31,902 nt of DNA, taken from the IMG/VR virus record IMGVR_UViG_3300020042_007667, positions 1 to 31,902 of that record, one strand, 5' to 3'. Below are positions 115-31,902 of the stretch, one piece after another (the stretch's first letter is position 1; each line of letters opens with the position of its first letter). The position numbers were made by a program, and so were the translations under genes. The notes beneath the pieces are model-generated. The model was not told the origin of the DNA. It searched no databases and worked only from the letters and a program-made list of their open reading frames with translations. This stretch comes from a virus. Lineage: Duplodnaviria > Caudoviricetes.

Positions 115-116
115 CG

Positions 117-455
117 TTGGATTGGGCTGGGATGCTTTTGTGGAATCGTGTGTTTGGTGTTGGTCAGACGTGGATTAGTCCACAGACTGATGTTGAACTT
201 TTGTTGTTGACTTGTAAGCAACTGGATCGGCAGATTGTTTTGGAACGTATGTTTGTTGAGAAGCCTGAAGATTTTCATATTCACCGTCAACTGTTGGATT
301 TGGAAAATACTGTTGTAAAGAATTTAGGCTTGTTGGGTTTGACTGTTGATGCACGTTCTAAGTTGGGGTTGGCTGAGATTAAGGCTGAGTCCAAGATGGA
401 GCAGTTGCGTAAACGACAGGATCAACGTGAGAAAGTTATTGTAATTGAGTCTTGA
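117..455 (+). CDS. Terminase small subunit (P27-like), 5' truncated
   Basis: Directly upstream of and overlapping terL; C-terminal 'LGLLGLTVDARSKL' resembles the LGLTPxxRx(K/R)L motif of P27-type small terminases; true start lost to the chimeric end. Confidence 0.75.
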   Translation: MDWAGMLLWNRVFGVGQTWISPQTDVELLLLTCKQLDRQIVLERMFVEKPEDFHIHRQLLDLENTVVKNLGLLGLTVDARSKLGLAEIKAESKMEQLRKRQDQREKVIVIES

Positions 456-2117: not shown

Positions 2118-3454
2118 TGCTTCGTAATTTGTCTGGTGAGTCTAGGGCTATCAGTTTTCAGTCGTTGTGGGGTGCAGGTGATCTAACATCGTATGAAACT
2201 CAGTCAAGTGCGTTTGTTGATTATCAGACTGCTTTTACTGTTAATGCTGTTTGGGCTTGTGTGTCTTTGATTAGCGATACTGTTTCTGCGTTGCCTGTTG
2301 ATACTTATGTTAGGCGTGATGGCATTGCGTATCCTTATCGCCCGAAGCCTACTTGGGTTAGTAAGCCTGATGTTGCTATTCCTAGTGTGGCGTTTTGGCA
2401 ACAAGCGATGATTAGTTTGCTGATTGACGGTAATGCGTTTGTTCGTTTATTCAGAGATGATCGTGGACAAATTGTAAATATGGTTGTTTTGAATCCTTTG
2501 AGCGTTCAGGTTTCTCGCAATGCGTTGGGTCAAAAGTTTTATACATCTACTGTTGAAGGTAATAAGATTCTTACTAACGATGAGATGTTGCATATTTCTG
2601 GAAGCATTTTATTTCCAGGTGAGTTCAGGGGTAAATCTCCGATAGACACACTTAAAGAAAACATTGGTTTAGCAATTGGTCTTGAAAGTTTTGCATCTCG
2701 TTTTTTTGGGCAAGGAACTTTAACTCAGGGTGTAATTGAATATCCAGGTGCGTTAACTGCAGAACAAGCTGAGAACCTTGCTAAGTCTTTTGACCGTCAA
2801 CACAAGGGTTTCCGTAAAGCACATAAGACAGGTATTCTTTCTGGCGGTGCAGTTTTCAAGCCAACAACTATTGCTAACGATCAGGCACAGATGCTTGACT
2901 CTCGTAGGCTTGCTGTTGAAGATGTTGCTAGAGCGTATCGTGTTCCTACAGATATGATCGGTTTGAATAACGGTGGGCAAAGTTATAACAGTATTGAGCA
3001 GAAGCAGATAGCGTTTTTGAGCCACACAATTCGTCCTTGGGTATCAAAACTTGAAGATGCGTTTAGTCAATTACTTCCTGATAACGCTTATCTAGCGTTT
3101 AGCACTGATGATCTGTTGCGTGGAGATTACGCTACCCGCATTGAAGGTTATGCGAAACTGTTGCAGAACGGTGTTCTTAGCACTAACGAAGTTAGACGTA
3201 AAGAGAATATGCGACCTATTGAAGGTGGCGATGTTGTTCGTGTTCCACTAACTAACGTAAACATTTCAGCTGCTTCGTTGACTGAAGATGAAACTAAGGT
3301 TGATATGGCTCAAAAACTTATTGCTCTTGGTTTTGTCCCTGAAGATGTTTTGACTGTTCTAGGGCTTCCTAAGATTGGTCATACAGGACTTCCAACGGTG
3401 CAGTTGCAGAACCCTACGACTGTTCCTGATGGTAGTTATGAAACAGGTGCTTAA
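2117..3454 (+). CDS. Portal protein, HK97 family
   Basis: 'AVWACVSLISDTVSALP', 'LLIDGNAF', 'G.SPI', 'VARAYRVP', 'NEVRRKENMRPIEGGD'; position after terL. Confidence 0.95.
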   Translation: MLRNLSGESRAISFQSLWGAGDLTSYETQSSAFVDYQTAFTVNAVWACVSLISDTVSALPVDTYVRRDGIAYPYRPKPTWVSKPDVAIPSVAFWQQAMISLLIDGNAFVRLFRDDRGQIVNMVVLNPLSVQVSRNALGQKFYTSTVEGNKILTNDEMLHISGSILFPGEFRGKSPIDTLKENIGLAIGLESFASRFFGQGTLTQGVIEYPGALTAEQAENLAKSFDRQHKGFRKAHKTGILSGGAVFKPTTIANDQAQMLDSRRLAVEDVARAYRVPTDMIGLNNGGQSYNSIEQKQIAFLSHTIRPWVSKLEDAFSQLLPDNAYLAFSTDDLLRGDYATRIEGYAKLLQNGVLSTNEVRRKENMRPIEGGDVVRVPLTNVNISAASLTEDETKVDMAQKLIALGFVPEDVLTVLGLPKIGHTGLPTVQLQNPTTVPDGSYETGA

Positions 3455-5316
3455 TGCCTTATTTTATTGAGCAAGTTGCTACAGGTTGGAACACTGTAAA
3501 AGATGATGGGGAAGTTTTAGGGGAGCATAAAACTAAAGCACAAGCGATAGCACAGATGGTTGCAATTAGTTTGGCAGAAGGTATTGCTGTTGGTGGAGAA
3601 CGAGCAGTTGACCCTAATGAGTCTTATTCTCCGCCTGCAGGTGTTGCGGTAGCTGCAAAACGTGCTTTGAAGTGGATCAGTGAAGGTTTGGCTGGTGATG
3701 GTTTTACTGATGTTGGTAGGGCTAGGGCTGTTCAACTTGCTTCGGGTGCAGATGTTTCGGGTGAAACAGTGAACAGGATGATAAGTTTTTTTGCTCGTCA
3801 ACAAGATTCTGTTAAGGGTGCTACAGGTTTTAACAGCGGTGAAGAAGGTTACCCAAGTTCTGGCAGAGTAAGTTGGGATGCCTGGGGCGGTGATTCTGGG
3901 CAGTCTTGGGTTAACGGTTTGTCTGATGTATCTGCGGTTCGTGCTATTGGCGATAAAGTTGGTATAAGCGATTTTGACGATACTTTATTTGTTAGTGGTG
4001 GATTAAATAGCAGGGTTTATTCGTTCATTGAAAATCAAGATGTTGATCTCTATGTTGTTACTGGCAGGCACGAATCTGATCGTGGCTTGACTACAGATTT
4101 ACTAGATAAACTTGGTGTTGAATACAAAAAACTTATTATGCAACCTAACAATCAAAACAATAGTGCCGATTACAAGGGCAATGTTGCTTCAGATTTGTTA
4201 GCAGAAGGTTTAGATGTGGTTTATGTGGTTGAAAATAATGATGAAGCAAGAGCATCCTATAAAAGGGCTGGAGTTCAACAGGTTTATTCACCAGATGATT
4301 TACCGTTAATGGATGGAGTTAGACAGATGGAAGATTACCCAATGAGCAAAGATGATTTAGTTTTTAAGGTCAATGAGTTGAAAGGTGAAGTTCTTGAACT
4401 TGTTGGCAAGTTGGCTAAGACTGTTGATCACTTATCTGAACTTGTTGAGTCTGTAGAAATGCCTTCAGTTGATGTTGTAGATGTTGTTGAACCATCAGAT
4501 TTGATGCCTGAAGAAATTGAGATGGATAGTGTGCGTTTTGTTGATCCATTGAAGGTTGTTGAATTGCATAATCGGGGTGAGCGTGTTCAATCTGGTATTG
4601 AGCAACGTATCGCAGTTCAAGATTTAGAGATCCGTTCTGAAGGTAATGGAATGACTTTGCGTGGTTATGCAGCTGTGTTTAATTCGCCTTCACAGCCGTT
4701 GCCGTTTATTGAAACTATTGAGCGTGGTGCTTTTGCTGATTCTTTGAAATCTCGCAATGATGTAAAGCTGTTGTGGAATCACGATACAGGCATTGTCCTA
4801 GGTAGCACTCGTGCAGGCACTTTACGTCTTATGGAAGATGAGCGTGGATTGTTTGTTGAAGCCGATTTGCCCGATACACAGGCAGGGCGTGATGCAGCTG
4901 TAAGTATTCAAAGAAAAGACGTAACCGCTTTTTCTTTCGGATTTAGGATTCCTGCTGGTGGCGATGTTTGGCGTAGTGCTAATGAGCGTGTTCTAAAGCG
5001 TGTAAATGTTCACGAAGTTAGTGTTGGCGTGGCTTTCCCTGCCTATACAGCGACTGATGGAACTGCTAATGTTAGATCTATGAATGAACTTTCTGAAAAG
5101 ATTATTCGTCTGGCTGAGTTGCGTGGGATTTCTGCCGATGAATTAACTGATGCTTTGCTTGCTCTTGAAGCAGGTGATGAACTTACTGAACGTCAGGGTG
5201 AGTTGCTTACTGATACTTTAGGTAAGGTTTTGAAGAAAAATCCTGAAGTTTCTAACGCTAATGATGTTCTTGATTTGAAGAAAAAACAACTTGATTTGCT
5301 GATGCAACGTGTATAG
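3454..5316 (+). CDS. Prohead (capsid maturation) protease, HK97 family, fused to N-terminal domains including a HAD-like domain
   Basis: C-terminal half 'LRGYAAVFNS', 'LLWNHD', 'FSFGF', 'HEVS...FPAY'; internal 'SDFDDTL...VVTGR...YK' HAD motifs. Confidence 0.9.
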   Translation: MPYFIEQVATGWNTVKDDGEVLGEHKTKAQAIAQMVAISLAEGIAVGGERAVDPNESYSPPAGVAVAAKRALKWISEGLAGDGFTDVGRARAVQLASGADVSGETVNRMISFFARQQDSVKGATGFNSGEEGYPSSGRVSWDAWGGDSGQSWVNGLSDVSAVRAIGDKVGISDFDDTLFVSGGLNSRVYSFIENQDVDLYVVTGRHESDRGLTTDLLDKLGVEYKKLIMQPNNQNNSADYKGNVASDLLAEGLDVVYVVENNDEARASYKRAGVQQVYSPDDLPLMDGVRQMEDYPMSKDDLVFKVNELKGEVLELVGKLAKTVDHLSELVESVEMPSVDVVDVVEPSDLMPEEIEMDSVRFVDPLKVVELHNRGERVQSGIEQRIAVQDLEIRSEGNGMTLRGYAAVFNSPSQPLPFIETIERGAFADSLKSRNDVKLLWNHDTGIVLGSTRAGTLRLMEDERGLFVEADLPDTQAGRDAAVSIQRKDVTAFSFGFRIPAGGDVWRSANERVLKRVNVHEVSVGVAFPAYTATDGTANVRSMNELSEKIIRLAELRGISADELTDALLALEAGDELTERQGELLTDTLGKVLKKNPEVSNANDVLDLKKKQLDLLMQRV

Positions 5317-6714: not shown

Positions 6715-6760
6715 ACCCCCCTTTTTTGGTGCGTAGGCCAGAATTGGGGGGTGTTTTCTA
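6715..6760 (+). terminator. Hairpin/terminator after capsid gene
   Basis: ACCCCCC...GGGGGGT stem with inner TTTTGG/CCAGAA pairing, followed by GTTTTCT. Confidence 0.6.
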
Positions 6761-6773
6761 TTATGCTAAGGCT

Positions 6774-7955
6774 ATGACTAAATCAACTATTTCTTGGTAT
6801 TCCAATTCACTCAATCAGCCAACAGGTTATGGCACTCAATCTCAACAAGTTATTCAACGTCTTGTGAAGGATGGGCATAAGGTTGCGATGCTTTCTAACT
6901 ATGGTGGGGAAGGTGTGAATAGTTTGATTGAAACTGGTGCAGGTCTTATCCCACATTATTCTCGTGGGATGACTCAGTATTCTACAGATGTTATGCCGTT
7001 GCATCACGCTCACTGGAAAAGTGAGAACCCTGATCTGCCCGCTTGGATGGTAACCCTATATGACGTGTGGGTCTTGCTAGACAATCCTGCGTTAGATTCA
7101 ATTCCTATTGCTTCGTGGACTCCCATAGATCATCAGCCTGCACCTGAAAAAGTTTTGACTTGGTTGCGGAAACCGAACGTTACTCCGATTGCGATGAGCA
7201 AATTTGGTAAGGCGATGATTGAAAATGCGGGTATTGAGTCTGAATACATCCCACACGCTATTGATACGAACCTGTTTAAACCTACTGAGTTTCTTCCTGA
7301 AGGTAAGTCTGGGCGTGAATTTGTTGGTGGTGTAGATAAGTTTGTTGTTGGAATGAACTTTGCTAATAAGGCTGGTGGGTTTATTCACCGTAAGGCTGTT
7401 GCAGAAAACTTTTTGGCTTTTGCTATTTTTGCTAGTAAACACGATGATGTTGTTTTGTATTTGCATACTGAACCTTATGGAAAGCAGTCTGGGTTTGTGT
7501 TGCCTAACATTTTGCAGGCTTGTGGTGTTCCACCTGAAAAGGTTGTGATGGTTGATCCGATTGCTTATAGTTATGGGATTAGTCAAGAAACTTTATCTGC
7601 AATCTATTCGGCTTGGGATGTGGGTTTGTTCTGCAACTATGGTGAAGGTTTTGGCGTTCCACAAATTGAAGCACAGGCTTGTGGTGTTCCTATTATTACA
7701 AGCAATTTTGCAGCTTCGGCTGAACTTGCTTCCCCTGATTCGTTCCTTGTAAATGGGCAACCGTTTTGGGATGCAGGGCAACACACTTGGTTTAATGTTC
7801 CATTGGTGTCTGGCATTGTGGATGCGTTGGAGCAGGCGTATCAGCGTGGCAGGGGTGAGTTTCCAGATACTGTTGTGTTTGCTAAGAACTATGATGCCGA
7901 TAAGGTTTATAAAGAATCTTGGAAGCCTTTGATTAAGAAACTATCTAGCAAGTGA
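6774..7955 (+). CDS. Glycosyltransferase, GT-B fold (GT4-like)
   Basis: 'PTGYGTQ' N-terminal loop and 'GEGFGVPQIEAQACGVPII' ExFGx4E signature; start moved to ATG 6774, 6 nt after a TATGCT -10. Confidence 0.9.
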   Translation: MTKSTISWYSNSLNQPTGYGTQSQQVIQRLVKDGHKVAMLSNYGGEGVNSLIETGAGLIPHYSRGMTQYSTDVMPLHHAHWKSENPDLPAWMVTLYDVWVLLDNPALDSIPIASWTPIDHQPAPEKVLTWLRKPNVTPIAMSKFGKAMIENAGIESEYIPHAIDTNLFKPTEFLPEGKSGREFVGGVDKFVVGMNFANKAGGFIHRKAVAENFLAFAIFASKHDDVVLYLHTEPYGKQSGFVLPNILQACGVPPEKVVMVDPIAYSYGISQETLSAIYSAWDVGLFCNYGEGFGVPQIEAQACGVPIITSNFAASAELASPDSFLVNGQPFWDAGQHTWFNVPLVSGIVDALEQAYQRGRGEFPDTVVFAKNYDADKVYKESWKPLIKKLSSK

Positions 7956-8602
7956 TTCCTGTTTTAGGGTTTCTTACTTACTCTAGATTTGATTTAGCAG
8001 ATCGCTTACTGCAGTCAATAGATTATCCTGTTGAGCATTTGGTGATTGTAGATAATTCAGGTAAGCGTGAATACAATCCTGTAAAACCTGAACTTGTAAA
8101 AAACTTGTGGTTGATTCAAGTTCCTTACGGTTTAGGTTATTCAGGTGGACTAAATCTGATTGTAAAAACTACACCTTTTGCTCCGTACTGGTTACTGGTA
8201 AATGATGATACTGTCTTTCAACCAGGTGCATTAAAAAAGATTAGTGAGCAAGCAGATCCAGAAGCAATAAACTTTCTTAGCATTATGCCTAAGTGGAGCG
8301 GGTTTGTTTTAGGTGAAGGTGCAGTGCTAAAAGCAGGTTTGTTTGATGAGCGTTTTCATCCAATCTATTTTGAAGATAATGATTATGAGCGTAGGTTGAT
8401 GCAAGCGGGTGTGAAGGCTAAGTTTATAAACGCTGAACTTGCACACGATAACTCAAGCACTCTCAACTCTGGATTTCATAGTCAAAACGATAAAACGTAT
8501 CACGCTAATCAACGCTTGTTTCAATCTAAAGTTGCAGCTCAAGACTTTACTGCAGGTGAATGGGATTTAAATATTAGAAGGGCAAACGCTTGGGAAAGAT
8601 AG
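7952..8602 (+). CDS. Glycosyltransferase, GT-A fold (GT2-like)
   Basis: 'VIVDNS', 'LLVNDD' (DxD-like), 'GLFDERF.P.YFEDNDY'. Confidence 0.88.
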   Translation: MIPVLGFLTYSRFDLADRLLQSIDYPVEHLVIVDNSGKREYNPVKPELVKNLWLIQVPYGLGYSGGLNLIVKTTPFAPYWLLVNDDTVFQPGALKKISEQADPEAINFLSIMPKWSGFVLGEGAVLKAGLFDERFHPIYFEDNDYERRLMQAGVKAKFINAELAHDNSSTLNSGFHSQNDKTYHANQRLFQSKVAAQDFTAGEWDLNIRRANAWER

Positions 8603-9033
8603 TTTATACAGGTGGCACGTTTGATTTGTTTCATAGTGGGCATATACGTTTTCTGAAGGCTTGTAGAAGACTTGCAGGGGATGATGGCAGGGTTGTTGTG
8701 TCTTTAAATACTGATGCTTTTATTCAGGCATATAAGGGTAAACCGCCTATTATGTCGTTTGATGAACGTGCCGAGATTTTGCTGGGCTGTAAGTTTGTAG
8801 ATCGTGTTGTGCCTAATCTTGGTGGGGCAGATAGTAAACCTACGATTACAGATGTTATGCCTGATTTTGTGGTGATCGGTGATGACTGGGCTAGACGTGA
8901 TTATTATGCTCAAATGCAATTTAGTCAGGCTTGGTTAGATGATCTTGAAATACAACTTGTTTATGTTCCTTACACTCAAGGCATTTCCACTACTGAATTG
9001 AAGAAACGTATAGCGGGCTTGCAGATAAACTAG
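8590..9033 (+). CDS. Cytidylyltransferase-like nucleotidyltransferase (TagD / RfaE domain II family)
   Basis: 'YTGGTFDLFHSGH' HxGH motif, 'GDDW', 'GISTT'. Confidence 0.9.
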   Translation: MGKIVYTGGTFDLFHSGHIRFLKACRRLAGDDGRVVVSLNTDAFIQAYKGKPPIMSFDERAEILLGCKFVDRVVPNLGGADSKPTITDVMPDFVVIGDDWARRDYYAQMQFSQAWLDDLEIQLVYVPYTQGISTTELKKRIAGLQIN

Positions 9034-18247: not shown

Positions 18248-18252
18248 GCTTT

Positions 18253-18366
18253 ATAACGCTTAGATAACAACTGCGACACGCCCATAAAATAAAGTTGCAT
18301 TATTTGCCTGTTTAGGTGTAATCTAAATACATAAGGCAGAAAGCCTAAATCGGACAAACGAAGGAA
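18253..18366 (+). promoter_or_regulatory. Promoter module copy 1 (ATAAC repeats, GCGACACGCC, TTGCAT-N18-TAATCT, hairpin, ATCGGACAAACGAAGGA)
   Basis: Architecture repeated at 25331-25453. Confidence 0.8.
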
Positions 18367-18947: not shown

Positions 18948-19367
18948 ATGGACAAACAAGAAACAAATAACTACGAATACTGCTCTTGCATTTGGTGCGG
19001 GCAATGGATCAGTAAACATACTTATACAAAACGTGTTGAACGCAAACTTGGCGATGCCAATATTTGTAAAGATTGCCGTGATGTTCGTAGAGTTGCCAGT
19101 ATCAAAAGTCGTAAAGATAAAAAATGGGAGCATCCAACTTTAGGAATTATTTACTGCCAGATTTGGGATGGCGATCTAAACGATGATTGGTTACCGATAG
19201 ATGATGAAGGTGCATTGTTTAGACCTGGTCTGCGTAATTGCGGTTTAAAGGATTGCGTAAATAGTACCCATATAATTCAACCTAAAGTTTTGCAGGTTAA
19301 TGATCTTGAACTACTTTTAGGGATGCACGAACTACAGCAACATAACAGACGAGCAAAAACAAGATGA
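18948..19367 (+). CDS. Zinc-binding protein with C-terminal His-Cys/HNH-like loop
   Basis: CxxC...CxxC and 'RNCGLKDCVNSTHI'; paralogue of 24097-24366. Confidence 0.7.
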   Translation: MDKQETNNYEYCSCIWCGQWISKHTYTKRVERKLGDANICKDCRDVRRVASIKSRKDKKWEHPTLGIIYCQIWDGDLNDDWLPIDDEGALFRPGLRNCGLKDCVNSTHIIQPKVLQVNDLELLLGMHELQQHNRRAKTR

Positions 19368-19948
19368 GCAAATTGCGGGTAGGTAGTTTATTTAGCGGTT
19401 ATGGTGGTTTGGATCTCGCTGTTTTGAATGTTCTTGATGCAGAAATTGCTTGGCATTGTGAATGGGAAGATGCTCCGAGTCGGATTCTTGAAAAACATTT
19501 TCCTGATGTACCCAATTATCGTGATGTATCAAAAGTAGATTTTACGAAGGTTGAAGCAGTGGATGTTTTGACTGGCGGTTTTCCTTGCCAAGACTTATCG
19601 CTGGCAGGTAAAAGGGCAGGACTAATAGAAGGAACTAGATCAGGGCTGTGGCACGAATTCGCTAGGGCTATTGAAGAACTACAACCAAAACTGGTTGTTA
19701 TAGAAAATGTTAGGGGTTTACTGAGTGCTAAAGCAGATAACGGAATGGAATACAGTCAAGAAGATTTGGATGATTGGGGAAGCAGACCTGTTTTCACAGC
19801 AATTCAAGCCGTTCTCGGGTCGTTGGCCGATCTCGGGTATGATGCAAAATGGTGTGGTTTACGAGCTGCCGATGCAGGATCACCGCACAACCGATTTAGG
19901 ATTTTTATCATCGCCTACCCTACCAACTCCGAATACGATGGAGCATAG
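19364..19948 (+). CDS. DNA (cytosine-5) methyltransferase, N-terminal part (motifs I-VIII)
   Basis: 'SLFSGYGG', 'GGFPCQD.S.AG', 'ENV', 'PHNRFRIFI'; ends before motifs IX-X. Confidence 0.9.
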   Translation: MSKLRVGSLFSGYGGLDLAVLNVLDAEIAWHCEWEDAPSRILEKHFPDVPNYRDVSKVDFTKVEAVDVLTGGFPCQDLSLAGKRAGLIEGTRSGLWHEFARAIEELQPKLVVIENVRGLLSAKADNGMEYSQEDLDDWGSRPVFTAIQAVLGSLADLGYDAKWCGLRAADAGSPHNRFRIFIIAYPTNSEYDGA

Positions 19949-20504
19949 GGAAATAAAAACCTTGGAAAAGATTGAAGAACTAAAATTACGTTCTCCAGGT
20001 GGATATAGAAATTTGCGTGAAGTAGTTATTAATGAGTTGCCTGAAGATAAATTGTTGCAAAGACCTAATGTTGTAAGCATTAATGGTATTCCAGATCGTA
20101 TGGAGATGCTTATGACCCCTGTTGCTAGTGAAGGTCTAAAAGCACCTGCTCAACAAACTTCAGCCGTCAAAGGTAAAAATGGTCAGATTTGGCTAAGTAA
20201 TCAGGCAAAAGATATGGAAACTCATTGGGGGAAGTTTGAACCTGCAATACGCAGATGGGAAAAAATAACACGTCCTGCTCCTGCCCCTACTAAGCCTGAT
20301 GGTAAGGATGGTAATCATCGCTTGAGTGCAGAATTTACTGAGTGGATGATGGGTTTGCCTTCTGGTTGGGTTACTGCGGATGATTTGGGTTTGAAGCGTA
20401 ATGATCAGTTAAAGGCTTGTGGAAATGGTGTTGTACCGCAACAAGCTGCATTAGCATTAAGTATCTTGCTTGATGAAGAAACACTTAAAAAGATAAGGAA
20501 CTAA
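19725..20504 (+). CDS. DNA (cytosine-5) methyltransferase, C-terminal part (TRD, motifs IX-X)
   Basis: 'LPTP', 'RLSAEFTEWMMGLPSGW', 'ACGNGVVPQQA'; overlaps previous ORF in another frame; start uncertain. Confidence 0.8.
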   Translation: MLKQITEWNTVKKIWMIGEADLFSQQFKPFSGRWPISGMMQNGVVYELPMQDHRTTDLGFLSSPTLPTPNTMEHREIKTLEKIEELKLRSPGGYRNLREVVINELPEDKLLQRPNVVSINGIPDRMEMLMTPVASEGLKAPAQQTSAVKGKNGQIWLSNQAKDMETHWGKFEPAIRRWEKITRPAPAPTKPDGKDGNHRLSAEFTEWMMGLPSGWVTADDLGLKRNDQLKACGNGVVPQQAALALSILLDEETLKKIRN

Positions 20505-20505
20505 A

Positions 20506-20697
20506 ATGGCAAAAAAAACTTATTCAATTCTTACAGGAGATACTTGGGAAGTTGAAGCAGATTCAAGTAAGCAGGCGTTAAAAAAGTTTTGGGCGTGGTG
20601 GGATTCTGAATTATGCCCTTGCGAAAATGAAGATTGCCTTTGCATTACTAAAGGCGAAGCAAACACTATCGTTATTGATGCGGATCCTGAAGAATGA
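20506..20697 (+). CDS. Hypothetical acidic protein
   Basis: AAGGA SD, 63 aa, coupled to next gene. Confidence 0.65.
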   Translation: MAKKTYSILTGDTWEVEADSSKQALKKFWAWWDSELCPCENEDCLCITKGEANTIVIDADPEE

Positions 20698-21326
20698 TTG
20701 TATTTGATTTTTTTGCTGGAACAGGATCATCAACGCAAGCCTTCAAAGATGCAGGACATACTGTTATAACTTTTGAATTAGATAAGCATTTTGCAGTTAC
20801 TGAAAATGTGGACATTATGGATTTAACAGTTGAATACCTTATTGCAACTTATGGGCAACCTGACTTTGTTTGGGCTTCACCGCCTTGCACTGCCTTTAGT
20901 GTTGCTTCTATTGGACATCATTGGGCTAAGGGTGGAAGTCATCCTGTTCCTAAAACACCTGAAGCAGAATACAATCAGTTGCTTGTTGGTAAAGCCATTG
21001 AACTGGCTGAAGGGCTAAAACCCAAGTTTGGTTTCTTGATAGAAAACCCTAGGGGGATGCTACGGAAATTACCTGTAGTGCAACAGTTAGATCGTAGGAC
21101 AGTTACTTATTGCCAATACGGTGATAATCGTATGAAGCCAACAGACATTTGGGGGAACGTACCAAATTGGGTTGCCAAAAATCCTTGTAAGAATGGTGAT
21201 GACTGCCACATTTCTGCTCCTAGGGGTTCACGAACTGGAACTCAAGGTTTAAAAGATGCTAAATTGCGAAGTATGATTCCCTATGCTCTAGGTCAAGAAA
21301 TTTTAGAAGCAATAGAAAAACAATAA
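20694..21326 (+). CDS. Compact C5-type DNA methyltransferase
   Basis: 'DFFAGTGS', 'WASPPC', 'IENP', 'YCQYG...KPTDIW'. Confidence 0.8.
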   Translation: MIVFDFFAGTGSSTQAFKDAGHTVITFELDKHFAVTENVDIMDLTVEYLIATYGQPDFVWASPPCTAFSVASIGHHWAKGGSHPVPKTPEAEYNQLLVGKAIELAEGLKPKFGFLIENPRGMLRKLPVVQQLDRRTVTYCQYGDNRMKPTDIWGNVPNWVAKNPCKNGDDCHISAPRGSRTGTQGLKDAKLRSMIPYALGQEILEAIEKQ

Positions 21327-21346
21327 AAGAAATTAGGACAAAATAA

Positions 21347-22180
21347 ATGGATGAACTATTTGAAATTGAAACTAAAGATGTAAACATTTTTGACTTAGAT
21401 CCTAAAAAGATTAGAGTTGAACAATTTACAAGCGGAGAATTACAAAAAATACAACCTAAAATTTCTAAGGCTGTATGGAGACCCGCACCAGGTAGAAAAC
21501 TTGGATTCTTAGTGTTTCATAAAAACGATTTATTAGGTGCAGCTTTTCTTGCTTCGCCTGTAATCAATTTGGGTGCTAGGGATGAAGCACTTGCCTTACC
21601 AAAAGATTCTTCTGAAAAAGGTAAAGAACTAAGACATTACGCAGATCTATCTGTTTGTGTGGCAACTCAACCTTTTGGATGGCATTGGAACGGCGGAAAA
21701 CTTATCGCATTGCTGGCAACAACTTTCGGCGATTACTGGTTTGAACGTTACGGTGATGAACTTAAGGGAATCATTACAACTTCTCTGTGGGGTAAAGGAT
21801 CACAATACAATCGCATTTACAAATTTTTGGGCTATACAAAAGGTTTTGGACACGAACACATTTCTGAAGATAGATATCAAGATATGATGACGTGGCTCAG
21901 AGATCACGACATTGAAGTTCCTAGCAGTAGGTTCGGTTCTGGCAGTAACCCTAGAATGAGACGAATTATGGCTTATAAAAGGGCATCAGGTGAAAAGGCT
22001 TTAACTTTAGTTCACGGCAATAAAAGGGGCATCTACTATCATCCTGCGGAAAGTCCAGAAAATAGGCAACAGGTCATTGATTTCTGGTATGAGCGTTGGG
22101 GAAAGCCAAGGTTTGATCGCACAAAAGATTTGGAAGCACCTTATTCTTCAGGGCTTGAGATTAAAGAAAACGGAGTGTAG
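21347..22180 (+). CDS. DUF4338 / Druantia DruA-like protein
   Basis: 'PGR.L.F.V', 'L.S....L..RD', 'PFG...GGKL.A.LA', 'TTSL.G..SQYNR', 'LG.TKG.G', recognised as DUF4338 motifs. Confidence 0.75.
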   Translation: MDELFEIETKDVNIFDLDPKKIRVEQFTSGELQKIQPKISKAVWRPAPGRKLGFLVFHKNDLLGAAFLASPVINLGARDEALALPKDSSEKGKELRHYADLSVCVATQPFGWHWNGGKLIALLATTFGDYWFERYGDELKGIITTSLWGKGSQYNRIYKFLGYTKGFGHEHISEDRYQDMMTWLRDHDIEVPSSRFGSGSNPRMRRIMAYKRASGEKALTLVHGNKRGIYYHPAESPENRQQVIDFWYERWGKPRFDRTKDLEAPYSSGLEIKENGV

Positions 22181-25330: not shown

Positions 25331-25453
25331 ATAACGCTTTATAACAGATTTATAACAACTGCGACACGCCGATAAAAATAAGTTGCATAAAGTAGGTCTT
25401 TTCCTGTAGATTTGTTCTATCAGCCAAACGGTTGGTATCGGACAAACGAAGGA
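25331..25453 (+). promoter_or_regulatory. Promoter module copy 2 (ATAAC x3, GCGACACGCC, TTGCAT-N18-TAGATT, hairpin, ATCGGACAAACGAAGGA)
   Basis: Same elements and spacing as 18253-18366. Confidence 0.8.
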
Positions 25454-26397: not shown

Positions 26398-26581
26398 ACT
26401 AGTGCGACCTGAACACGCTGAACGAGTGCGTGATTTTTATCGCAGTCAGGGTGCATCTAAAGAACAGCAACGCATCATTGACTTGCTTGAGCGTTTGCCT
26501 TTTATCTGGGGTGGTACTACTCAGATGATTCAAACAAGCAGAGATGAAGTAATTGCACTTATCAAGGGAGAAACTAAATGA
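26390..26581 (+). CDS. Hypothetical protein (ExxRIIxLL family)
   Basis: ATG 26390; 'EQQRIIDLLE...DEVIALIKGETK'. Confidence 0.7.
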   Translation: MSELVRPEHAERVRDFYRSQGASKEQQRIIDLLERLPFIWGGTTQMIQTSRDEVIALIKGETK

Positions 26582-26769
26582 GTGAGCAGTGGGAAAATGA
26601 TGACGAAGTAACAACTACTTACGGATCAATTCAACTAAGCCTTAGACAGGCATACAGTGCGGGAACTATTACTGAGCGTAAACGTATTGTTGATCTGTTG
26701 ATGCAGACACCTGTATCGCCAGAGATTTATAAGTTGATTCAAGGGCTTAGGGGTGAAGTAGTTGAGTAA
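26578..26769 (+). CDS. Hypothetical protein (ExxRIIxLL family)
   Basis: GGGAG SD, 'ERKRIVDLL'. Confidence 0.7.
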   Translation: MSEQWENDDEVTTTYGSIQLSLRQAYSAGTITERKRIVDLLMQTPVSPEIYKLIQGLRGEVVE

Positions 26770-27013
26770 AGAACCGAACGGAGTGTTGGTAATGACTACT
26801 TGTAAATGTCGTGAAAACAATAAGAACATTGTGGTAACTAGAACCTGGTTTGATGAAACTTTGCAAAACAAGATTGAGCAAGGTGTAAAGCAGGAACGTG
26901 ATCGTGTTATCGCACTATTAGAAAACACATTTTATCCTTTAGATTATGGTCGTTGGCAGGCGGATGAACTTTTGGATGAAGTAATTGCACTTATCAAGGG
27001 AGAAACTAAATGA
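26762..27013 (+). CDS. Hypothetical protein (ExxRIIxLL family)
   Basis: 'ERDRVIALLE...DEVIALIKGETK'. Confidence 0.7.
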   Translation: MSKEPNGVLVMTTCKCRENNKNIVVTRTWFDETLQNKIEQGVKQERDRVIALLENTFYPLDYGRWQADELLDEVIALIKGETK

Positions 27014-27171
27014 CTGATCTAACGAAGCGGGAATCGTTTTATTTCATTGTTTCATCGTTAGCTGCTCTCAGCGTGTTGATCACTATTCTTGCGTTTTGGG
27101 CTGAACGCCAACCGAAGTGTTGGGATCAGTATTCAACTGAAGAACAAGCGATTCAGGTGTGTGAGCAGTGA
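27010..27171 (+). CDS. Small membrane-anchored protein (53 aa)
   Basis: Not in the ORF track. TM helix then 'CWDQYSTEEQAIQVCEQ'; ATGA and GTGA overlaps. Confidence 0.7.
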   Translation: MTDLTKRESFYFIVSSLAALSVLITILAFWAERQPKCWDQYSTEEQAIQVCEQ

Positions 27172-27419
27172 GATACTACAAGCCGTTGCCTTACCCGAAG
27201 CGTTTGATTGTGTCTGATGCCATTTTCTTTTGGCAAATTAATCAAGCGAAGTTACGACAGATCAGGGCGTGGCAGGCTGAAGCAGTCAATACGATGCAGA
27301 TTGAAACAGGTTTCTCAAAACGTAGATGCTTTAGGCTTTTAGATGAGTTGGAGAGTATTGATGACTTTTGGGATAGTAAAGGCAATAAACTAATAAAAAC
27401 AGAAGGAAGAACGAAATGA
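27168..27419 (+). CDS. Hypothetical protein
   Basis: Coupled ORF. Confidence 0.6.
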   Translation: MRYYKPLPYPKRLIVSDAIFFWQINQAKLRQIRAWQAEAVNTMQIETGFSKRRCFRLLDELESIDDFWDSKGNKLIKTEGRTK

Positions 27420-27646
27420 CTTGTACCAATTGCAGTACCGAATGTAAATGCAGAAACTTGAACGCAGTAAACATTTTCAGCAAGGATTATAAGGCTGGGG
27501 AGATTGCTGGTAGATCTGCAGAAGCAAACCGCACTACTGATGCGTTGATTGAACTTGAACGTGCAGAGATTATTTCTAACGCTCAAATGCAGGCAATACT
27601 TGACTTGATTCTGGAAAAACTTTCTGATTCGGTAGATATTGACTGA
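27416..27646 (+). CDS. Hypothetical protein with Cys-rich N-terminus
   Basis: GAAGGA SD, 'CTNCSTECKC'. Confidence 0.7.
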   Translation: MTCTNCSTECKCRNLNAVNIFSKDYKAGEIAGRSAEANRTTDALIELERAEIISNAQMQAILDLILEKLSDSVDID

Positions 27647-27786
27647 TGCTTGAATTTATTTTGACTTTGTTGCTAATCATAGTTTTAGGGCTTGGTGCGT
27701 TAATTGTTACAAGCGTTTTCGTTGCGTACATTACTCAAGCACAATACATTGACGAATATCAGTTTGGAGATAATGATGATGACTAG
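27646..27786 (+). CDS. Small membrane protein with acidic tail (46 aa)
   Basis: Not in the ORF track. TGATG coupling; MLEFILTLLLIIVLGLGALIVTSVFVAYITQAQYIDEYQFGDNDDD. Confidence 0.65.
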   Translation: MLEFILTLLLIIVLGLGALIVTSVFVAYITQAQYIDEYQFGDNDDD

Positions 27787-27991
27787 AGCGATTGATGAAG
27801 CAGTTGAGTTGCTTCGTGATCCCAACCTGGTCTGGGGTGCAGATTTTGATGGGATTAGATACGCTCTTGCTGATCTGTTGCTTGTGTCTGCAGCTCAGGG
27901 CGATGTTATGCAAACACTTGCAGATAGTCTTGCAAAACGAATCATTGAACCTTATGGAAAGAATTACGATCCGAAATTGGAGTTACGCTGA
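27773..27991 (+). CDS. Hypothetical protein
   Basis: GGAG SD before ATGATGATG; coupled to next gene. Confidence 0.65.
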   Translation: MMMTRAIDEAVELLRDPNLVWGADFDGIRYALADLLLVSAAQGDVMQTLADSLAKRIIEPYGKNYDPKLELR

Positions 27992-28215
27992 TGCTTGAAG
28001 ATTTGAGTTTGCCTGTAAAGTTGTACAGTTGCAGAGTGCGTACCGTCAGGGAAGAAATGTCTAAGAGTGATGGGCAAATTCTTGAAGATGCCGTTATGAA
28101 TCCTTTATGGCCTTGCAAAACTTTGCAGAATGAGTTGTTGAAGCGTGAAATTAAGTTAAGCGATACGATTATCAAAAATCATAGAGAGAAGCGTTGCTCG
28201 TGTTGGAAAATCTAG
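27991..28215 (+). CDS. Small HTH-like zinc-binding protein
   Basis: 'C.V...HREKRCSC'; directly upstream of and overlapping the phosphoesterase gene. Confidence 0.65.
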   Translation: MLEDLSLPVKLYSCRVRTVREEMSKSDGQILEDAVMNPLWPCKTLQNELLKREIKLSDTIIKNHREKRCSCWKI

Positions 28216-29366
28216 TTACACCTGCACCTAAGATTGTTGCCCCTGATGGTTGGAGTCCGTCTGTCGTGTTTGATGGCGATGGCGGTGAAGCAACTTTACC
28301 TAGTACGCCTGATGGTGAGTCTGCAGACATTGATGCGTTTTTGCGGGAAGCAGGCATTGACCCTGATCAGATTGAGATTGTTGGTGAGCCACGCATTTCA
28401 CGTTGGCAGGTTGCACGACCGTTTCCACTAGAACCTGCGTGGCATACTGCAGTAAAAGTTCGTTGGAGAGCAAAAAAATCTAGCATCAATCTTCCCTTGC
28501 TTTATAGTTTGGCTAGAAAAACTAAACGTCCTGTAGTGAAGCCTGTTGCTCAAGGTAAAGTTTTGATTGTTTTATGGTCAGATTTGCAGGTGGGTAAAGT
28601 TGATCATCGTGGTGGGATTGAAACGATGCTTGAACGTGTCGCAAAAACACAAACCAAACTGATTAAGTTAGTCAAGCAGACTAAGCCTGAACGTATCATT
28701 TTCTGCGATGTAGGCGATACGATTGAAAACTTTGGAAACGTTGCAGACCTACATCAGTTGGCAACTAATGATCTTAGTTTGATGCAACAAGTAGATCTGG
28801 CAACATCTCTGGCTTGGGAAACCTTGAAGCAGTTGAGTAAATACTCTCCGATAACTTATTTGAGTGTAGGAAGCAATCACTGCCAATTTAGAGTAAACAA
28901 ACAAAAGGTAGGCACTGCAACAGATGATTGGGGAATCCACATAGGACGAACTCTTGCTAGATTGAGCAAGGAAGTAGGACTAGACATTACATTTCACGAA
29001 CCTGCTAAACACGATGAGTCTTTAGCATTAGACGTTTTTGAAGATGGTTTCCATATCTTAGGTATGGTTCACGGTCATCAAGCAAATCGCCCTGAAGGTA
29101 TCCCTGATTGGTGGAGAAAGCAATCGTTCGGTAAGCAAGCAGTTACTGCTTCAACAATTTTAGTTAGCGGTCATTTTCATCATCTAAGAGTTCAAGAACT
29201 AGGATCCACAAATAGGGGAACATCACGCTTCTGGATTCAAGCATCAACACTAGATAATGGAAGCAACTGGTGGAGACTAAACAGCGGTGAAGATTCAACA
29301 CCTGGTTTAGTTTGTTTTGCGTTAGAACGTAATCAAGATTTTACAGGGACAGTACATAAGTTGTAG
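28194..29366 (+). CDS. Calcineurin-like metallophosphoesterase (Mre11-like)
   Basis: 'SDLQVGK', 'GDTIE', 'SNH', 'HGHQ', 'GHFHH' metal-binding motifs. Confidence 0.85.
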   Translation: MLVLENLVTPAPKIVAPDGWSPSVVFDGDGGEATLPSTPDGESADIDAFLREAGIDPDQIEIVGEPRISRWQVARPFPLEPAWHTAVKVRWRAKKSSINLPLLYSLARKTKRPVVKPVAQGKVLIVLWSDLQVGKVDHRGGIETMLERVAKTQTKLIKLVKQTKPERIIFCDVGDTIENFGNVADLHQLATNDLSLMQQVDLATSLAWETLKQLSKYSPITYLSVGSNHCQFRVNKQKVGTATDDWGIHIGRTLARLSKEVGLDITFHEPAKHDESLALDVFEDGFHILGMVHGHQANRPEGIPDWWRKQSFGKQAVTASTILVSGHFHHLRVQELGSTNRGTSRFWIQASTLDNGSNWWRLNSGEDSTPGLVCFALERNQDFTGTVHKL

Positions 29367-29444
29367 GGGCTGAAATGGTTTTGACGGTTTGTAAAGCCAC
29401 AAGTGGAAGCAGATCGGACTCGGGTTCAATTCCCGACAGCTCCA
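29366..29444 (+). ncRNA. tmRNA-like RNA reduced to the tRNA-like domain
   Basis: Acceptor GGGGCTG/CAGCTCC+A with G3-U; stemless D-loop AAATGGTTTTGAC; P2 GGTTTGT/GCAGATC; GGAC; T-arm TCGGG-TTCAATT-CCCGA. Confidence 0.85.
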
Positions 29445-29469
29445 CAAAAGACTAAAAGAAAGAGAAGAA

Positions 29470-29646
29470 ATGCCTATATACGTTTACATTTGTGAAAACT
29501 GCGGTGGCAGGAAACAGATCGTGGCAGAGATAACTGATGAAGTAAAAGCACCTTACTGCGATTTGTGTGAACTAGATATGGTTAGACTTTTTGGGGTAGG
29601 TGCTATTCGCTTTAATGGTGGCGGATGGGGTAAGGATGCCCGATGA
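29470..29646 (+). CDS. FmdB-family zinc ribbon protein (58 aa)
   Basis: Not in the ORF track. 'MPIYVYICENCG...PYCDLC...M.R......I.F.GGGW'. Confidence 0.85.
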   Translation: MPIYVYICENCGGRKQIVAEITDEVKAPYCDLCELDMVRLFGVGAIRFNGGGWGKDAR

Positions 29647-30176
29647 AACTAAAACTGATTGCTATCGCAGTAATGATACTAAGTCTAAATCTAGGTTCTA
29701 ACACTGTTCAAGCAGAACAACCACCTGCAAAGATTCAAGTTGTTGCTAAAACAAATCATCAAACGATAACTTATCTGAACGCTAAACAGATCAAAGCACA
29801 AGCCAAAAGAGATAAGTTGAAACGTGTAGTCAACTATCTAACAACAAGAGTTCATAAGACTGCTTATGTTTTTTCAGGTTCAACTGTCGCAGGTTGGGAC
29901 TGTTCAGGGATGGTTCGTTATGCGTATAAACGTATGAACATAGTGTTGCCACACTCTGCAAACAAACAGGCTCACGCAGGTACAAGAGTTAGCAAGCCTA
30001 GAGTTGGGGACATAGTTGTTTTTGCTTATCAAGGTTCAACAAACTTTTATCACTCTGCAATCTATGTAGGTTCAGGGCTGATCGTAAACGCTAACCTTCT
30101 CTATAAAACAACAGTGATACAACCGCTAACTGATTTCAAGAACTCACAGATCAGATTCGTTAGAGTTATCAAGTGA
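29643..30176 (+). CDS. NlpC/P60 peptidoglycan hydrolase with signal peptide
   Basis: N-terminal signal, 'Y.FSG....GWDCSG', 'GD.V.F', 'HSAIY.G'. Confidence 0.9.
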   Translation: MKLKLIAIAVMILSLNLGSNTVQAEQPPAKIQVVAKTNHQTITYLNAKQIKAQAKRDKLKRVVNYLTTRVHKTAYVFSGSTVAGWDCSGMVRYAYKRMNIVLPHSANKQAHAGTRVSKPRVGDIVVFAYQGSTNFYHSAIYVGSGLIVNANLLYKTTVIQPLTDFKNSQIRFVRVIK

Positions 30177-30382
30177 TTAGAGAAGTTTGTAGTTGTGGAG
30201 CAGAATTTGAGACAGACGATAGAGATGCAATTATCTTGGTGAAGAACTGGAGAAGAACACACAAACACTCAGATAAGCCTGCTACGCCTGATACAAAGGA
30301 TTCAACCGTGCTTACAAATACAGACATTGCTTTAGGTTTTCAGGCTATCTATGATCCTTACAACGACCCATTAGACGAATAG
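30173..30382 (+). CDS. Small putative zinc-binding protein
   Basis: 'CSCGA...WRRTHKH'. Confidence 0.65.
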   Translation: MIREVCSCGAEFETDDRDAIILVKNWRRTHKHSDKPATPDTKDSTVLTNTDIALGFQAIYDPYNDPLDE

Positions 30383-30393
30383 AAAGAACACAA

Positions 30394-31482
30394 ATGCAAC
30401 CTACGCTAATCATTGGTGATGCCACGATCTATCACGGCAATAACCTAGACGTGCTACCTACACTGCCTGATAACAGCGTTGACTCAATCGTTTGTGATCC
30501 ACCATACGAACTAGGATTTATGAACAAATCTTGGGATAGTTCAGGCATCGCCTACAACCTAGAACTATGGCGTGAGTGCTTAAGAGTTCTCAAACCTGGT
30601 GGGCATCTAATTGCATTTAGTGGTAGCAGAACTTATCACAGAATGACCGTAGCAATAGAAGATGCAGGATTTGAAATCAGGGATATGATCAGTTGGATAA
30701 GCAACAAAACATTTCCTAAATCACACAACATCAGCAAGGCAATAGACAAACTACACAGAGCAGAAAGAAAAGTTGTAGGCATAAACCAAAACGTTGTTAG
30801 AGCATCCAAGATTGCAGGCGGATCAGACTTTGGCGGATTTAGTAAAGCAAACCCAGAGATAACAGAATCAGCAACAGATGATGCAAAACAATGGGAAGGA
30901 TGGGGAACAGCGTTAAAACCCACAGTTGAACCAATCGTGTTGGCTCGTAAACCTGTTCAAGGAACTATTGCAGAAAACATTTTGACTTATGGTGTTGGCG
31001 GAATCAACATTGATAAGACACGAATAGGCACAGAAATAATAACGATAAACAGTTTTGATAATGGTGCAAAACCTTTTGGCAATGCTATAGGCGAACCTTA
31101 TACATCAAAACAATCAGAAGGTAGATGGCCCGCCAATCTTGTAATAAATGAAACAACAGCCGAAGAACTAGGAGATGAAAGAAAGTTTTTTTATGTTGCA
31201 CGAGCAAGTAAGTCTGATCGCAACGAAGGCTTAGACATAATCAACAATCATCCAACAGTAAAACCAACTTCATTGATGCAATACCTAATTCGGCTAATCA
31301 CACCCGATAACGGTGTTGTGTTAGATCCTTTTGCAGGTTCAGGCTCAACAGGTAAAGCAACTATTTTAGAAAACAAAAGATTTATAGGAATAGAACTAAC
31401 GGCAGAATACCTACCAATTATTGAAGGCAGACTACAACACGCTTTACAAACACGCATCCAAGAAAATAATAACAATGAGTAG
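30394..31482 (+). CDS. DNA N6-adenine/N4-cytosine methyltransferase, beta class
   Basis: 'DPPY' precedes 'HPTVKP' and 'LDPFAGSGSTG'. Confidence 0.93.
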   Translation: MQPTLIIGDATIYHGNNLDVLPTLPDNSVDSIVCDPPYELGFMNKSWDSSGIAYNLELWRECLRVLKPGGHLIAFSGSRTYHRMTVAIEDAGFEIRDMISWISNKTFPKSHNISKAIDKLHRAERKVVGINQNVVRASKIAGGSDFGGFSKANPEITESATDDAKQWEGWGTALKPTVEPIVLARKPVQGTIAENILTYGVGGINIDKTRIGTEIITINSFDNGAKPFGNAIGEPYTSKQSEGRWPANLVINETTAEELGDERKFFYVARASKSDRNEGLDIINNHPTVKPTSLMQYLIRLITPDNGVVLDPFAGSGSTGKATILENKRFIGIELTAEYLPIIEGRLQHALQTRIQENNNNE

Positions 31483-31804
31483 ATTTCCTAAGCCCTGTCT
31501 AGCCTGCAACGTACTAACATCAGGCGGATCATACTGCGACAGGCATCAAGCAACAGTTGATGAGAGAGAAAGACTAAGACAAAATAATCGCAAGCGAAAT
31601 AGAACGCTCTACGACTCAACGCATTATCGTAAGGCTAGGGCATACCTTCGGGCTACTGCCACCCACTGCCATCTCTGCAAGCAACCGTTCACAGATCGTA
31701 AAGACATCACCGCAGATCACATAGAAGCAGGCAACCCCCTATCCCCACTTGCACCTGCTCACTCAGTATGCAACTCCAGAAGGGGAAACAAACCACTGAC
31801 CTAA
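31475..31804 (+). CDS. HNH endonuclease (packaging-associated)
   Basis: 'CHLC...ADHI...PAHSVCNSRRG'; last gene before the genome end, i.e. upstream of terS on the circular map. Confidence 0.9.
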   Translation: MSRFPKPCLACNVLTSGGSYCDRHQATVDERERLRQNNRKRNRTLYDSTHYRKARAYLRATATHCHLCKQPFTDRKDITADHIEAGNPLSPLAPAHSVCNSRRGNKPLT

Positions 31805-31839
31805 AAAAAATACAAACACTTAAACAATCAACTATTCAA

Positions 31840-31902
31840 CCCTAAGCCCTTGAATCAACTTATAAATCTCTGGCGATACAGGTGTCTGCATCAACAGATC
31901 AA
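31840..31902. repeat. Inverted copy of 26690-26752 (probable chimeric contig end)
   Basis: 63-bp perfect reverse-complement match. Confidence 0.9.

What the first reader, a model, noticed from the sequence alone, without database searches (positions are those of the whole stretch)
29366..29447. Phage-encoded mini-tmRNA: tRNA-like domain only, no mRNA/tag domain
Seen: 79 nt with every hallmark of the tmRNA TLD (Ala acceptor stem with G3-U and discriminator A, stemless D-loop ending GAC, 7-bp P2 stem, GGAC linker, T-arm). The pseudoknot/tag-ORF region is replaced by 16 nt (AAAGCCACAAGTGGAA, with a tiny CCAC/GTGG hairpin). CCA is not encoded (ACAA). Established: the TLD binds SmpB, AlaRS and EF-Tu; I recall TLD-only relatives in mycobacteriophage DS6A and jakobid mitochondria, so it is rare rather than unprecedented. 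Inference: either an SmpB decoy that blocks trans-translation, or a tag-free ribosome-rescue RNA that frees stalled ribosomes without marking phage proteins for degradation, possibly countering tRNA/mRNA-cleaving defences.
Basis: partly seen in the sequence, partly recalled or inferred. Interest (0 to 1): 0.92.

Follow-up and report, generated by a model that had tools for sequence, protein, structure and literature searches.

The report
Phage mini-tmRNA without tag template
This phage carries a conserved 82-base gene that copies only the alanine-accepting, tRNA-like end of the bacterial ribosome-rescue RNA (tmRNA); the same kind is already published from mycobacteriophage DS6A and turns out to be common in phages, and it likely lets the phage divert stalled ribosomes away from the host's tag-and-destroy pathway.

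Summary
Window 29366-29447 matches Rfam tmRNA only at its two ends (72.2 bits) and folds as acceptor stem, 8-bp P2a, a small capped hairpin and T-arm. Relatives show strong covariation. In a scan that left the acceptor stem free, G1-C72, G2-C71, G3·U70 and A73 were kept in 81 of 81 unique sequences while pairs 4-6 varied, so alanine identity is selected. The published DS6A TLD-only tmRNA has the same anatomy, so this is a new member of a known kind. This scan has also reported the family before on other genomes. I collected 179 unique copies from partial scans, against 9 'standard, no CDS' entries in the 2025 database. The gene is accessory: 39 of 80 relatives carry it at this site. No phage SmpB was found (0 of 50). 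Best reading: a charged competitor that uses host SmpB to enter stalled ribosomes and adds Ala without the SsrA tag (0.55); a passive SmpB sponge is the main rival (0.25). Expression and function were not shown.

The parts
29366..29447 (+). mini-tmRNA gene (TLD + P2a + capped hairpin); mature RNA predicted about 82 nt after 5' cutting and CCA addition
   Evidence: RF00023 72.2 bits; own model 103.2 bits, only copy in the window; fold
29366..29372 (+). acceptor stem, 5' strand; G3 at 29368
29373..29384 (+). stemless D-loop with GG and terminal GA (SmpB-binding elbow by homology)
   Evidence: alignment; GG present in 81 of 81; role from PMC8363625 section 6
29385..29392 (+). P2a 5' strand (pairs with 29409-29416)
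   Evidence: 7 of 8 pairs with changes on both sides
29393..29408 (+). conserved module AAAG / 3-bp hairpin with CAAG loop / AA, in place of pseudoknots and tag ORF
   Evidence: same module in DS6A and phiPsal1
29409..29419 (+). P2a 3' strand and GAC linker
29420..29436 (+). T-arm (5 bp, UUCAAUU loop)
   Evidence: 100% of cells paired, 3 of 5 pairs compensatory
29437..29447 (+). acceptor stem 3' strand (U at 29441 pairs with G3), discriminator A 29444, then CAA instead of CCA
28194..29366 (+). upstream gene, PHROG 'exonuclease' (metallophosphoesterase-like, 390 aa); the G of its TAG stop is G1 of the RNA
29470..29646 (+). downstream FmdB-family zinc-ribbon gene; follows the exonuclease gene directly in many relatives that lack the RNA

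Best explanation
This is a phage gene for a tag-less mini-tmRNA of the DS6A kind, which is likely cut out of the phage transcript, charged with alanine, and would enter stalled ribosomes with host SmpB and EF-Tu to hand the stuck protein alanine instead of the SsrA degradation tag. Shown: the structure, its covariation, strict alanine identity, absence of any tag frame, and absence of phage SmpB. Inferred: transcription with the upstream gene, 5' cutting by RNase P, CCA addition by the host, charging, SmpB/EF-Tu binding, peptidyl transfer, and competition with host tmRNA for SmpB and stalled ribosomes so that SsrA tagging falls. Least certain is the exit: with no reading frame and no stop codon, the peptidyl-RNA would leave by drop-off and peptidyl-tRNA hydrolase, after further Ala additions, or by hand-over to host tmRNA or ArfB.
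For: Acceptor-blind scan: G1-C72, G2-C71, G3·U70 and A73 in 81 of 81 unique sequences, while pairs 4-6 take 4 to 6 pair types; 88 of 88 in the model-fitted alignment; 20 of 20 in the synteny-found set. D-loop GG in 81 of 81, T-loop UUCRANU throughout (the T-loop and the TCGAC end of the D-loop were fixed by the search pattern). A TLD fragment with SmpB makes polyalanine on ribosomes without template in vitro (Shimizu and Ueda 2006, as cited in PMC3929946 and PMC2481249). The DS6A form is reported to inhibit endogenous tmRNA in E. coli (PMC11915505). No SmpB in the window or in 50 of 50 other carriers. Only 1 of 48 carriers also holds a full-length tmRNA. Likely hosts seem to lack back-up rescue: ArfB in 1 of 63 family genomes of 2.0 Mb or less (my count; 135 of 401 overall), arfA 1 of 3,213 and rqcH 0 in Actinobacteriota (PMC11633108 Table 1); a pure block would there leave stalled ribosomes unrescued.
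Against: No expression, processing, charging or binding data were obtained. [quoted passage not shown] Alanine identity could be kept only because charging protects the RNA and tightens the complex (inference). No release step is known for a peptidyl-mini-tmRNA with a long chain; host tmRNA could enter next and tag anyway. One phage record carries both a full-length tmRNA and a 73-nt mini form (G004). The host is inferred from one related phage; a direct host link was not found.
Confidence: 0.55

Rival explanations
1. Passive SmpB sponge: the RNA binds host SmpB (and EF-Tu), starves host tmRNA of its cofactor and shuts down trans-translation; alanylation only stabilises it, and ribosome entry is incidental.
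For: Inhibition 'whether or not chargeable', 'perhaps acting by titrating SmpB' (PMC4131195). SmpB-binding D-loop features are conserved. No phage SmpB. Several relatives place the gene just before the major capsid gene, where transcript levels should be high (level inferred).
Against: Invariant G3·U70, G1-C72, G2-C71 and A73 (81 of 81) and the conserved P2a/hairpin module are more than SmpB binding should need. Small genomes of the likely host family lack ArfB (1 of 63), so a complete block would also trap ribosomes that the phage needs.
Confidence: 0.25
2. Supplementary rescue with Ala-tail degron: the RNA adds capacity rather than competing, building poly-Ala tails that free ribosomes and still send the product to proteases, like RqcH tails.
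For: TLD-SmpB passes a growing polyalanine chain from one TLD to the next in vitro. Ala tails are degrons and expose the bond to Pth in B. subtilis RQC (PMC11633108). Copies sit in tRNA clusters in 13 of 60 loci tested.
Against: The DS6A form is reported to inhibit host tmRNA rather than assist it. SmpB is not supplied by the phage, so capacity would stay limited (inference). Actinobacteriota lack RqcH, and whether their proteases read Ala tails was not tested.
Confidence: 0.1
3. Decoy against host defence systems that bind or cut tmRNA/tRNA, unrelated to rescue.
For: CoCoNuT systems carry SmpB-like OB folds predicted to bind tmRNA (PMC10542128). Patchy presence among close relatives (14 changes on a 74-row tree) fits an arms-race gene.
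Against: No such system was linked to these phages or hosts here; strict alanine identity is not expected of a nuclease decoy; patchiness fits any accessory gene.
Confidence: 0.07
4. Non-functional remnant: an integration-site fragment or a recent deletion of a captured host ssrA.
For: Phages often carry ssrA fragments at attachment sites (PMC11915505 abstract). CCA is not encoded.
Against: Both ends are present and covary; no tyrosine integrase in the genome and no recombinase of integrase type among 48 ORFs; 30 tmRNAs of small host-family genomes differ from it at both ends; one size class, 133 of 179 copies at 80-83 nt; host genes also often lack encoded CCA.
Confidence: 0.02

Closest known systems
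TLD-only tmRNA of Mycobacterium phage DS6A (JN698994 28478-28560; tmRNA Website tmID 11587; 'Standard, no CDS' form)
   Same: 83 nt, Ala acceptor with G3·U70, stemless D-loop, P2a, the same A-rich loop plus CC/GG hairpin, T-arm, no tag frame, CCA not encoded; scores 68.8 bits with the model built from the window's relatives.
   Different: Different sequence, phage group and gene neighbourhood; DS6A is integrase-bearing. The window's copy overlaps the upstream stop codon.
Standard bacterial tmRNA (Rfam RF00023)
   Same: Whole tRNA-like domain and the start of helix 2.
   Different: Lacks pseudoknots, resume codon, tag ORF and stop codon. The A-rich/CC motif after P2a is in 57 of 66 mini segments but 4 of 22 host and 10 of 47 other full-length segments.
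CDS-less organellar tmRNAs (jakobid and other mitochondria; Mallomonadaceae plastids, about 65 bp)
   Same: tRNA-like domain without a tag frame.
   Different: There it is the organelle's only form; here it is an extra phage gene in a cell that keeps a full tmRNA. The short (65-78 nt) phage forms resemble the plastid ones in size; the window's form has the extra hairpin.
RqcH/RqcP alanine tailing (Bacillus RQC)
   Same: Template-free Ala addition to stalled chains, if the best or second rival reading holds.
   Different: Protein system acting on split 50S subunits with ordinary tRNA-Ala; no homology.

Membership tests
TLD-only (CDS-less) phage tmRNA, DS6A kind | Complete tRNA-like domain of tmRNA in one piece: Ala acceptor stem, stemless D-loop, T-arm | tested here: met
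TLD-only (CDS-less) phage tmRNA, DS6A kind | No pseudoknots or tag frame; helix 2 closed by a short cap; about 80 nt | tested here: met
   about 300 model positions missing; same anatomy as DS6A
TLD-only (CDS-less) phage tmRNA, DS6A kind | Encoded by a phage | tested here: met
   terminase, portal, capsid and tail genes; virus record
TLD-only (CDS-less) phage tmRNA, DS6A kind | Inhibits host tmRNA when expressed | not testable with these tools
   reported for the DS6A form only; original paper not held
Standard tmRNA (RF00023) | Score above gathering threshold | tested here: met
   72.2 against 47 bits
Standard tmRNA (RF00023) | mRNA-like domain with resume codon, tag ORF and pseudoknots | tested here: not met
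   16 nt between the P2a strands; ARAGORN no call
Standard tmRNA (RF00023) | Alanylation, SmpB and EF-Tu binding | not testable with these tools
   sequence determinants conserved; no assay
Two-piece (permuted) tmRNA | Circularly permuted gene, acceptor and coding pieces in swapped order | tested here: not met
   5' and 3' halves in standard order in one hairpin; Rfam scan of the window gave RF00023 only; no second TLD-like piece
tRNA-Ala | D-stem and anticodon arm with Ala anticodon | tested here: not met
   no D-stem, no 7-nt anticodon loop; ARAGORN 0 genes
ssrA attachment-site fragment (attP) | Partial gene end beside an integrase | tested here: not met
   both ends present; PF00589 absent; serine recombinases checked only through the 48-ORF scans

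The most novel reading that the evidence does not exclude
Phages across many host phyla share one mobile RNA family that turns host SmpB into a template-free alanine-adding rescue machine, an RNA counterpart of RqcH, which frees stalled ribosomes without the SsrA degron in hosts that have no ArfA, ArfB or RqcH. The conserved A-rich/CC-GG module would be the part that allows exit or a second round. In this clade the RNA's first base completes the upstream gene's stop codon, so maturation would make that mRNA non-stop and tie the nuclease's stability to suppression of SsrA tagging, as in arfA.
Probability: 0.2. Interest if true: 0.8.

Novelty: new member of a known kind. Interest (0 to 1): 0.45.

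Why it matters
The kind is published from one phage and treated as a curiosity: the 2025 database holds 9 'standard, no CDS' sequences among 97,179. Partial scans here gave 179 unique phage-type copies, unannotated because ARAGORN misses them, including copies in cultured Streptomyces phages. If the reading holds, phages commonly interfere with or replace trans-translation using an 80-nt RNA. That would give a natural test of a long-open question, namely what a tag-less tmRNA does on the ribosome (also asked of mitochondrial tmRNA), and a natural inhibitor of a pathway that is essential in some bacteria. This window adds a member, a clean presence/absence series and the stop-codon overlap; it is not the discovery of the kind.

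Tried and rejected
Expression: no RNA holder listed; the one run offered had a single distant contig over 28202-28447 and none over the RNA gene; no conclusion drawn. Promoter/terminator scan of 27000-31902 gave no excess over shuffles and no site close to the gene. BLASTN with the window's RNA against cultured phages found only T-arm fragments; another family member as query found whole copies. Partner gene: 150 of 194 neighbour clusters scanned with PHROGs, none named as SmpB, release factor, peptidyl-tRNA hydrolase or RNA ligase. Host link through the glycosyltransferase: 0 of 401 genomes at E<=1e-40. Stop-codon overlap as a selected trait: 32 of 179 unique RNAs overlap, but from about 6 upstream families against about 12 families at offsets 0 to -3 (my grouping), so tight packing explains it as well. 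Chromosomal mini-tmRNAs: 108 of 120 GTDB pattern loci failed the structure filter, 2 more dropped by eye, 10 kept, all on MAG or single-cell-type contigs; 2 of 151 actinomycete genomes hit, both among phage-like ORFs by my reading. The second acceptor pattern was noisy: 25 of 120 loci passed. The careful tree did not finish; the quick tree was used. Mao et al. 2009 is not held; a DOI recalled from memory fetched an unrelated paper. The 2025 database supplement gave 0 hits for four terms.

Full report
Setting. The window is a whole virus record of 31,902 bases, rated complete. Of 48 plus-strand ORFs scanned, the named ones give a tailed-phage plan: terminase, portal, prohead protease, HK97-type capsid, tail genes, replication genes and several DNA methylases. 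The closest cultured phage is Pontimonas phage phiPsal1 (terminase 57%; exonuclease 54%), found with a 1.76-Mb Microbacteriaceae host (PMC6106888, passages). A small-genome aquatic actinobacterium is therefore the likely host; this is inference, and a search for a direct link found nothing in 401 genomes.

Observation. Bases 29366-29447 match RF00023 at 72.2 bits with only the two ends aligned; ARAGORN sees nothing. The predicted fold is a 7-bp acceptor stem with G3·U, a 12-nt stemless D-loop, an 8-bp P2a, an AAAG/AA internal loop, a 3-bp hairpin with CAAG loop, a GAC linker and a T-arm. The 3' end reads ACAA. It is the only such copy in the window.

Close relatives. I fetched the best 80 of 175 viral loci that encode the upstream exonuclease. 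In 39 the RNA gene follows the stop codon directly, in 2 it is displaced by an inserted 168-aa gene, 36 lack it in the fetched DNA and 3 are cut short. Twenty distinct copies give 98% of cells paired, 13 of 23 pairs with changes on both sides and 0 of 500 shuffles as high; slid controls give 33-47% (relatedness can inflate the shuffle test). On a quick tree of 74 exonuclease rows, presence at this site needs 14 changes, 9 forced by well-supported branches; recombination would give the same picture. Of 16 records that lack it at this site, 4 carry a copy elsewhere; of the 9 that are at least 90% complete, 7 have none. Two of the copies elsewhere that I read, and the phiPsal1 copy, lie just before the capsid gene. 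The gene is accessory and moves.

The family. A general pattern gave 119 viral loci from 19 of 64 parts (about 410 estimated), 107 passing a structure filter. A second acceptor pattern gave 25 passing of 120. A third pattern fixed only the D-loop end, the linker and the T-loop, leaving the acceptor free: 99 of 120 loci passed (about 580 estimated before filtering), giving 81 unique sequences, and all 81 have G1-C72, G2-C71, G3·U70 and A73, while pairs 4-6 vary freely. Of the 21 dropped rows, 14 failed only the P2a filter and show the same acceptor identity; the other 7 are noise, ends of longer RNAs or one deletion variant. CCA is encoded in 20 of the 81. A model-fitted alignment of 88 sequences (86 picked from those 120 loci, plus phiPsal1 and DS6A) gives 96.6% paired and 19 of 23 pairs compensatory, the small hairpin included (such an alignment leans towards the structure). 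Pooling gave 179 unique RNAs, 133 of them 80-83 nt, the rest mostly shorter forms with a plain hairpin. The same acceptor pattern at full tmRNA length gave about 780 estimated stretches, 107 of 120 real, many near contig ends as expected of host genes beside prophages. In GTDB genomes 10 of 120 pattern loci looked real. Cultured carriers without annotation include Streptomyces phages LuckySocke, GiJojo, pSt2308, BRock and Alone3 and Stenotrophomonas phage Jojan60 (I read the LuckySocke and Jojan60 copies).

The conserved module. After P2a the minis keep an A-rich strand followed by CC, paired with GG. It is present in 57 of 66 distinct mini segments, against 4 of 22 from small-genome host-family tmRNAs and 10 of 47 from other full-length ones. 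It sits where helix 2 of tmRNA continues, so it is probably derived from it, but it is more constrained than in the hosts. The window's RNA does not resemble the ends of 30 host-family tmRNAs, so it is not a recent deletion of host ssrA. What the module does is unexplained.

Context. No SmpB in the window or in 50 carrier records, 16 of the virus records at least 90% complete. One of 48 carriers also has a full-length tmRNA. tRNA genes lie within the fetched flanks in 13 of 60 loci. Neighbours are diverse, often head and packaging genes, with no recurring partner among 150 of 194 clusters scanned. In 33 of the 39 adjacent loci and in the window, G1 of the RNA is the G of the upstream TAG; in 6 a TAA abuts it. 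A cut at the mature 5' end would leave the upstream mRNA without a whole stop codon (inference). Counted by lineage the overlap is not more common than other tight spacings, so I keep it as a lead.

Mechanism. Strict alanine identity says the RNA is charged. Charged TLD with SmpB is delivered by EF-Tu and accepts peptide: a TLD fragment plus SmpB makes polyalanine without template (Shimizu and Ueda 2006, seen only as cited in passages of PMC3929946 and PMC2481249). SmpB binds the D-loop elbow, and helix 2 points out between the subunits (PMC8363625, passages and section 6). The DS6A form is reported to inhibit E. coli tmRNA (PMC11915505). Against the ribosome step, PMC4131195 says that a similar molecule inhibits whether or not chargeable, perhaps by titrating SmpB (passages). 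For it, ArfB passes its cut-off in 135 of 401 genomes of the Herbiconiux family sample but in 1 of 63 genomes of 2.0 Mb or less (my count from the table; completeness not shown), and Actinobacteriota have almost no arfA and no rqcH (PMC11633108, passages with Table 1); ArfT and unknown factors were not tested. I therefore put an active, charged competitor first (0.55), a passive sponge second (0.25), Ala-tail rescue with degradation third (0.10), a defence decoy (PMC10542128, passages) at 0.07 and a remnant at 0.02. The exit from the ribosome is the weak step; drop-off with Pth is a known route (PMC8012679, passages), but not shown for long chains on such an RNA.

What is known. DS6A's RNA (83 nt, 43.2 bits) and phiPsal1's (82 nt, 54.6 bits) have the same anatomy. 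DS6A is listed as 'TLD only' in 2014 and again in 2025 with the CDS-less organellar forms; that database has 9 'standard, no CDS' sequences (I read part 1 of the text, passages and part 1 of section 12). Its supplement gave no hits for four terms and I did not see the database itself, so other phage copies may be among the 9. Mao et al. 2009 was not available. Nine full-text searches showed no paper, by listing, that describes a widespread phage family; subscription papers and bioRxiv supplements were not covered. This scan's own notes report the family on several other genomes; none matched this sequence or genome.

Verdict. Real, under selection, and a new member of the DS6A kind of tag-less phage tmRNA. 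The prevalence, the alanine constraint and the tractable Streptomyces phages make the functional question testable. Interest 0.45.

Noticed in passing
window 29364-29366: The upstream gene's TAG stop shares its G with the first base of the RNA (33 of 39 adjacent relatives too); 5' maturation would leave a non-stop mRNA. Seen in about 6 unrelated upstream families, not enriched by lineage.
   Followed up: partly
L325 1501-1582 (MG835450 5569-5650): Unannotated mini-tmRNA in Pontimonas phage phiPsal1, between small head-region genes and the major capsid gene.
   Followed up: yes
L734 1501-1579 (OR725497 17977-18055); L735 1201-1281: Unannotated mini-tmRNAs in Streptomyces phage LuckySocke (inside a tRNA cluster) and Stenotrophomonas phage Jojan60.
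   Followed up: partly
L027 2137-2640; L068: A 168-aa gene is inserted between the exonuclease gene and the RNA; its N-terminus looks GIY-YIG-like by eye (recalled motif), with no NCBIfam match.
   Followed up: partly
L048 3026-3099: A tRNA called Arg(tcg) by ARAGORN directly follows the mini-tmRNA in one relative; its anticodon arm looks irregular.
   Followed up: no
G004 (L092 1501-1573; record 41861-41933 and 88065-88440): One 99-kb phage record carries both a 73-nt mini form and a full-length tmRNA.
   Followed up: no
L733 1469-1610 (minus strand): A mini-tmRNA with an altered D-loop end and linker, preceded by another T-arm-like stretch, lies before the capsid gene of a relative.
   Followed up: no
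L084, L097, L099, L101, L107, L131, L139 and others: A shorter class (65-78 nt) closes P2a with a plain hairpin; 21 of 22 unique copies in the first set encode CCA.
   Followed up: partly
window 1-117 with 342-458; 26690-26757 with 31835-31902: Near-perfect inverted repeats at both contig ends (97% and 99%), probably assembly artefacts; they do not touch the finding.
   Followed up: no
window 18248-18300 and 25336-25388; 26543-26585 and 26975-27017: Two direct repeats (53 nt, 85%; 43 nt, 98%), likely a repeated regulatory element and a gene-junction duplication.
   Followed up: no
window 19364-22180: Three consecutive DNA methylase-like ORFs followed by a protein with a DruA (Druantia) Pfam match, E 6.7e-17.
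   Followed up: no
window 3454-5316; 6726-9033: The prohead protease carries a long N-terminal extension (PHROG 2859 and a weak HAD-like match); two glycosyltransferases and a cytidylyltransferase sit between capsid and connector genes.
   Followed up: no
L015 4168-4260; L064: In two relatives that lack the RNA, the same slot holds a different 85-90 nt non-coding stretch with a long inverted repeat.
   Followed up: no
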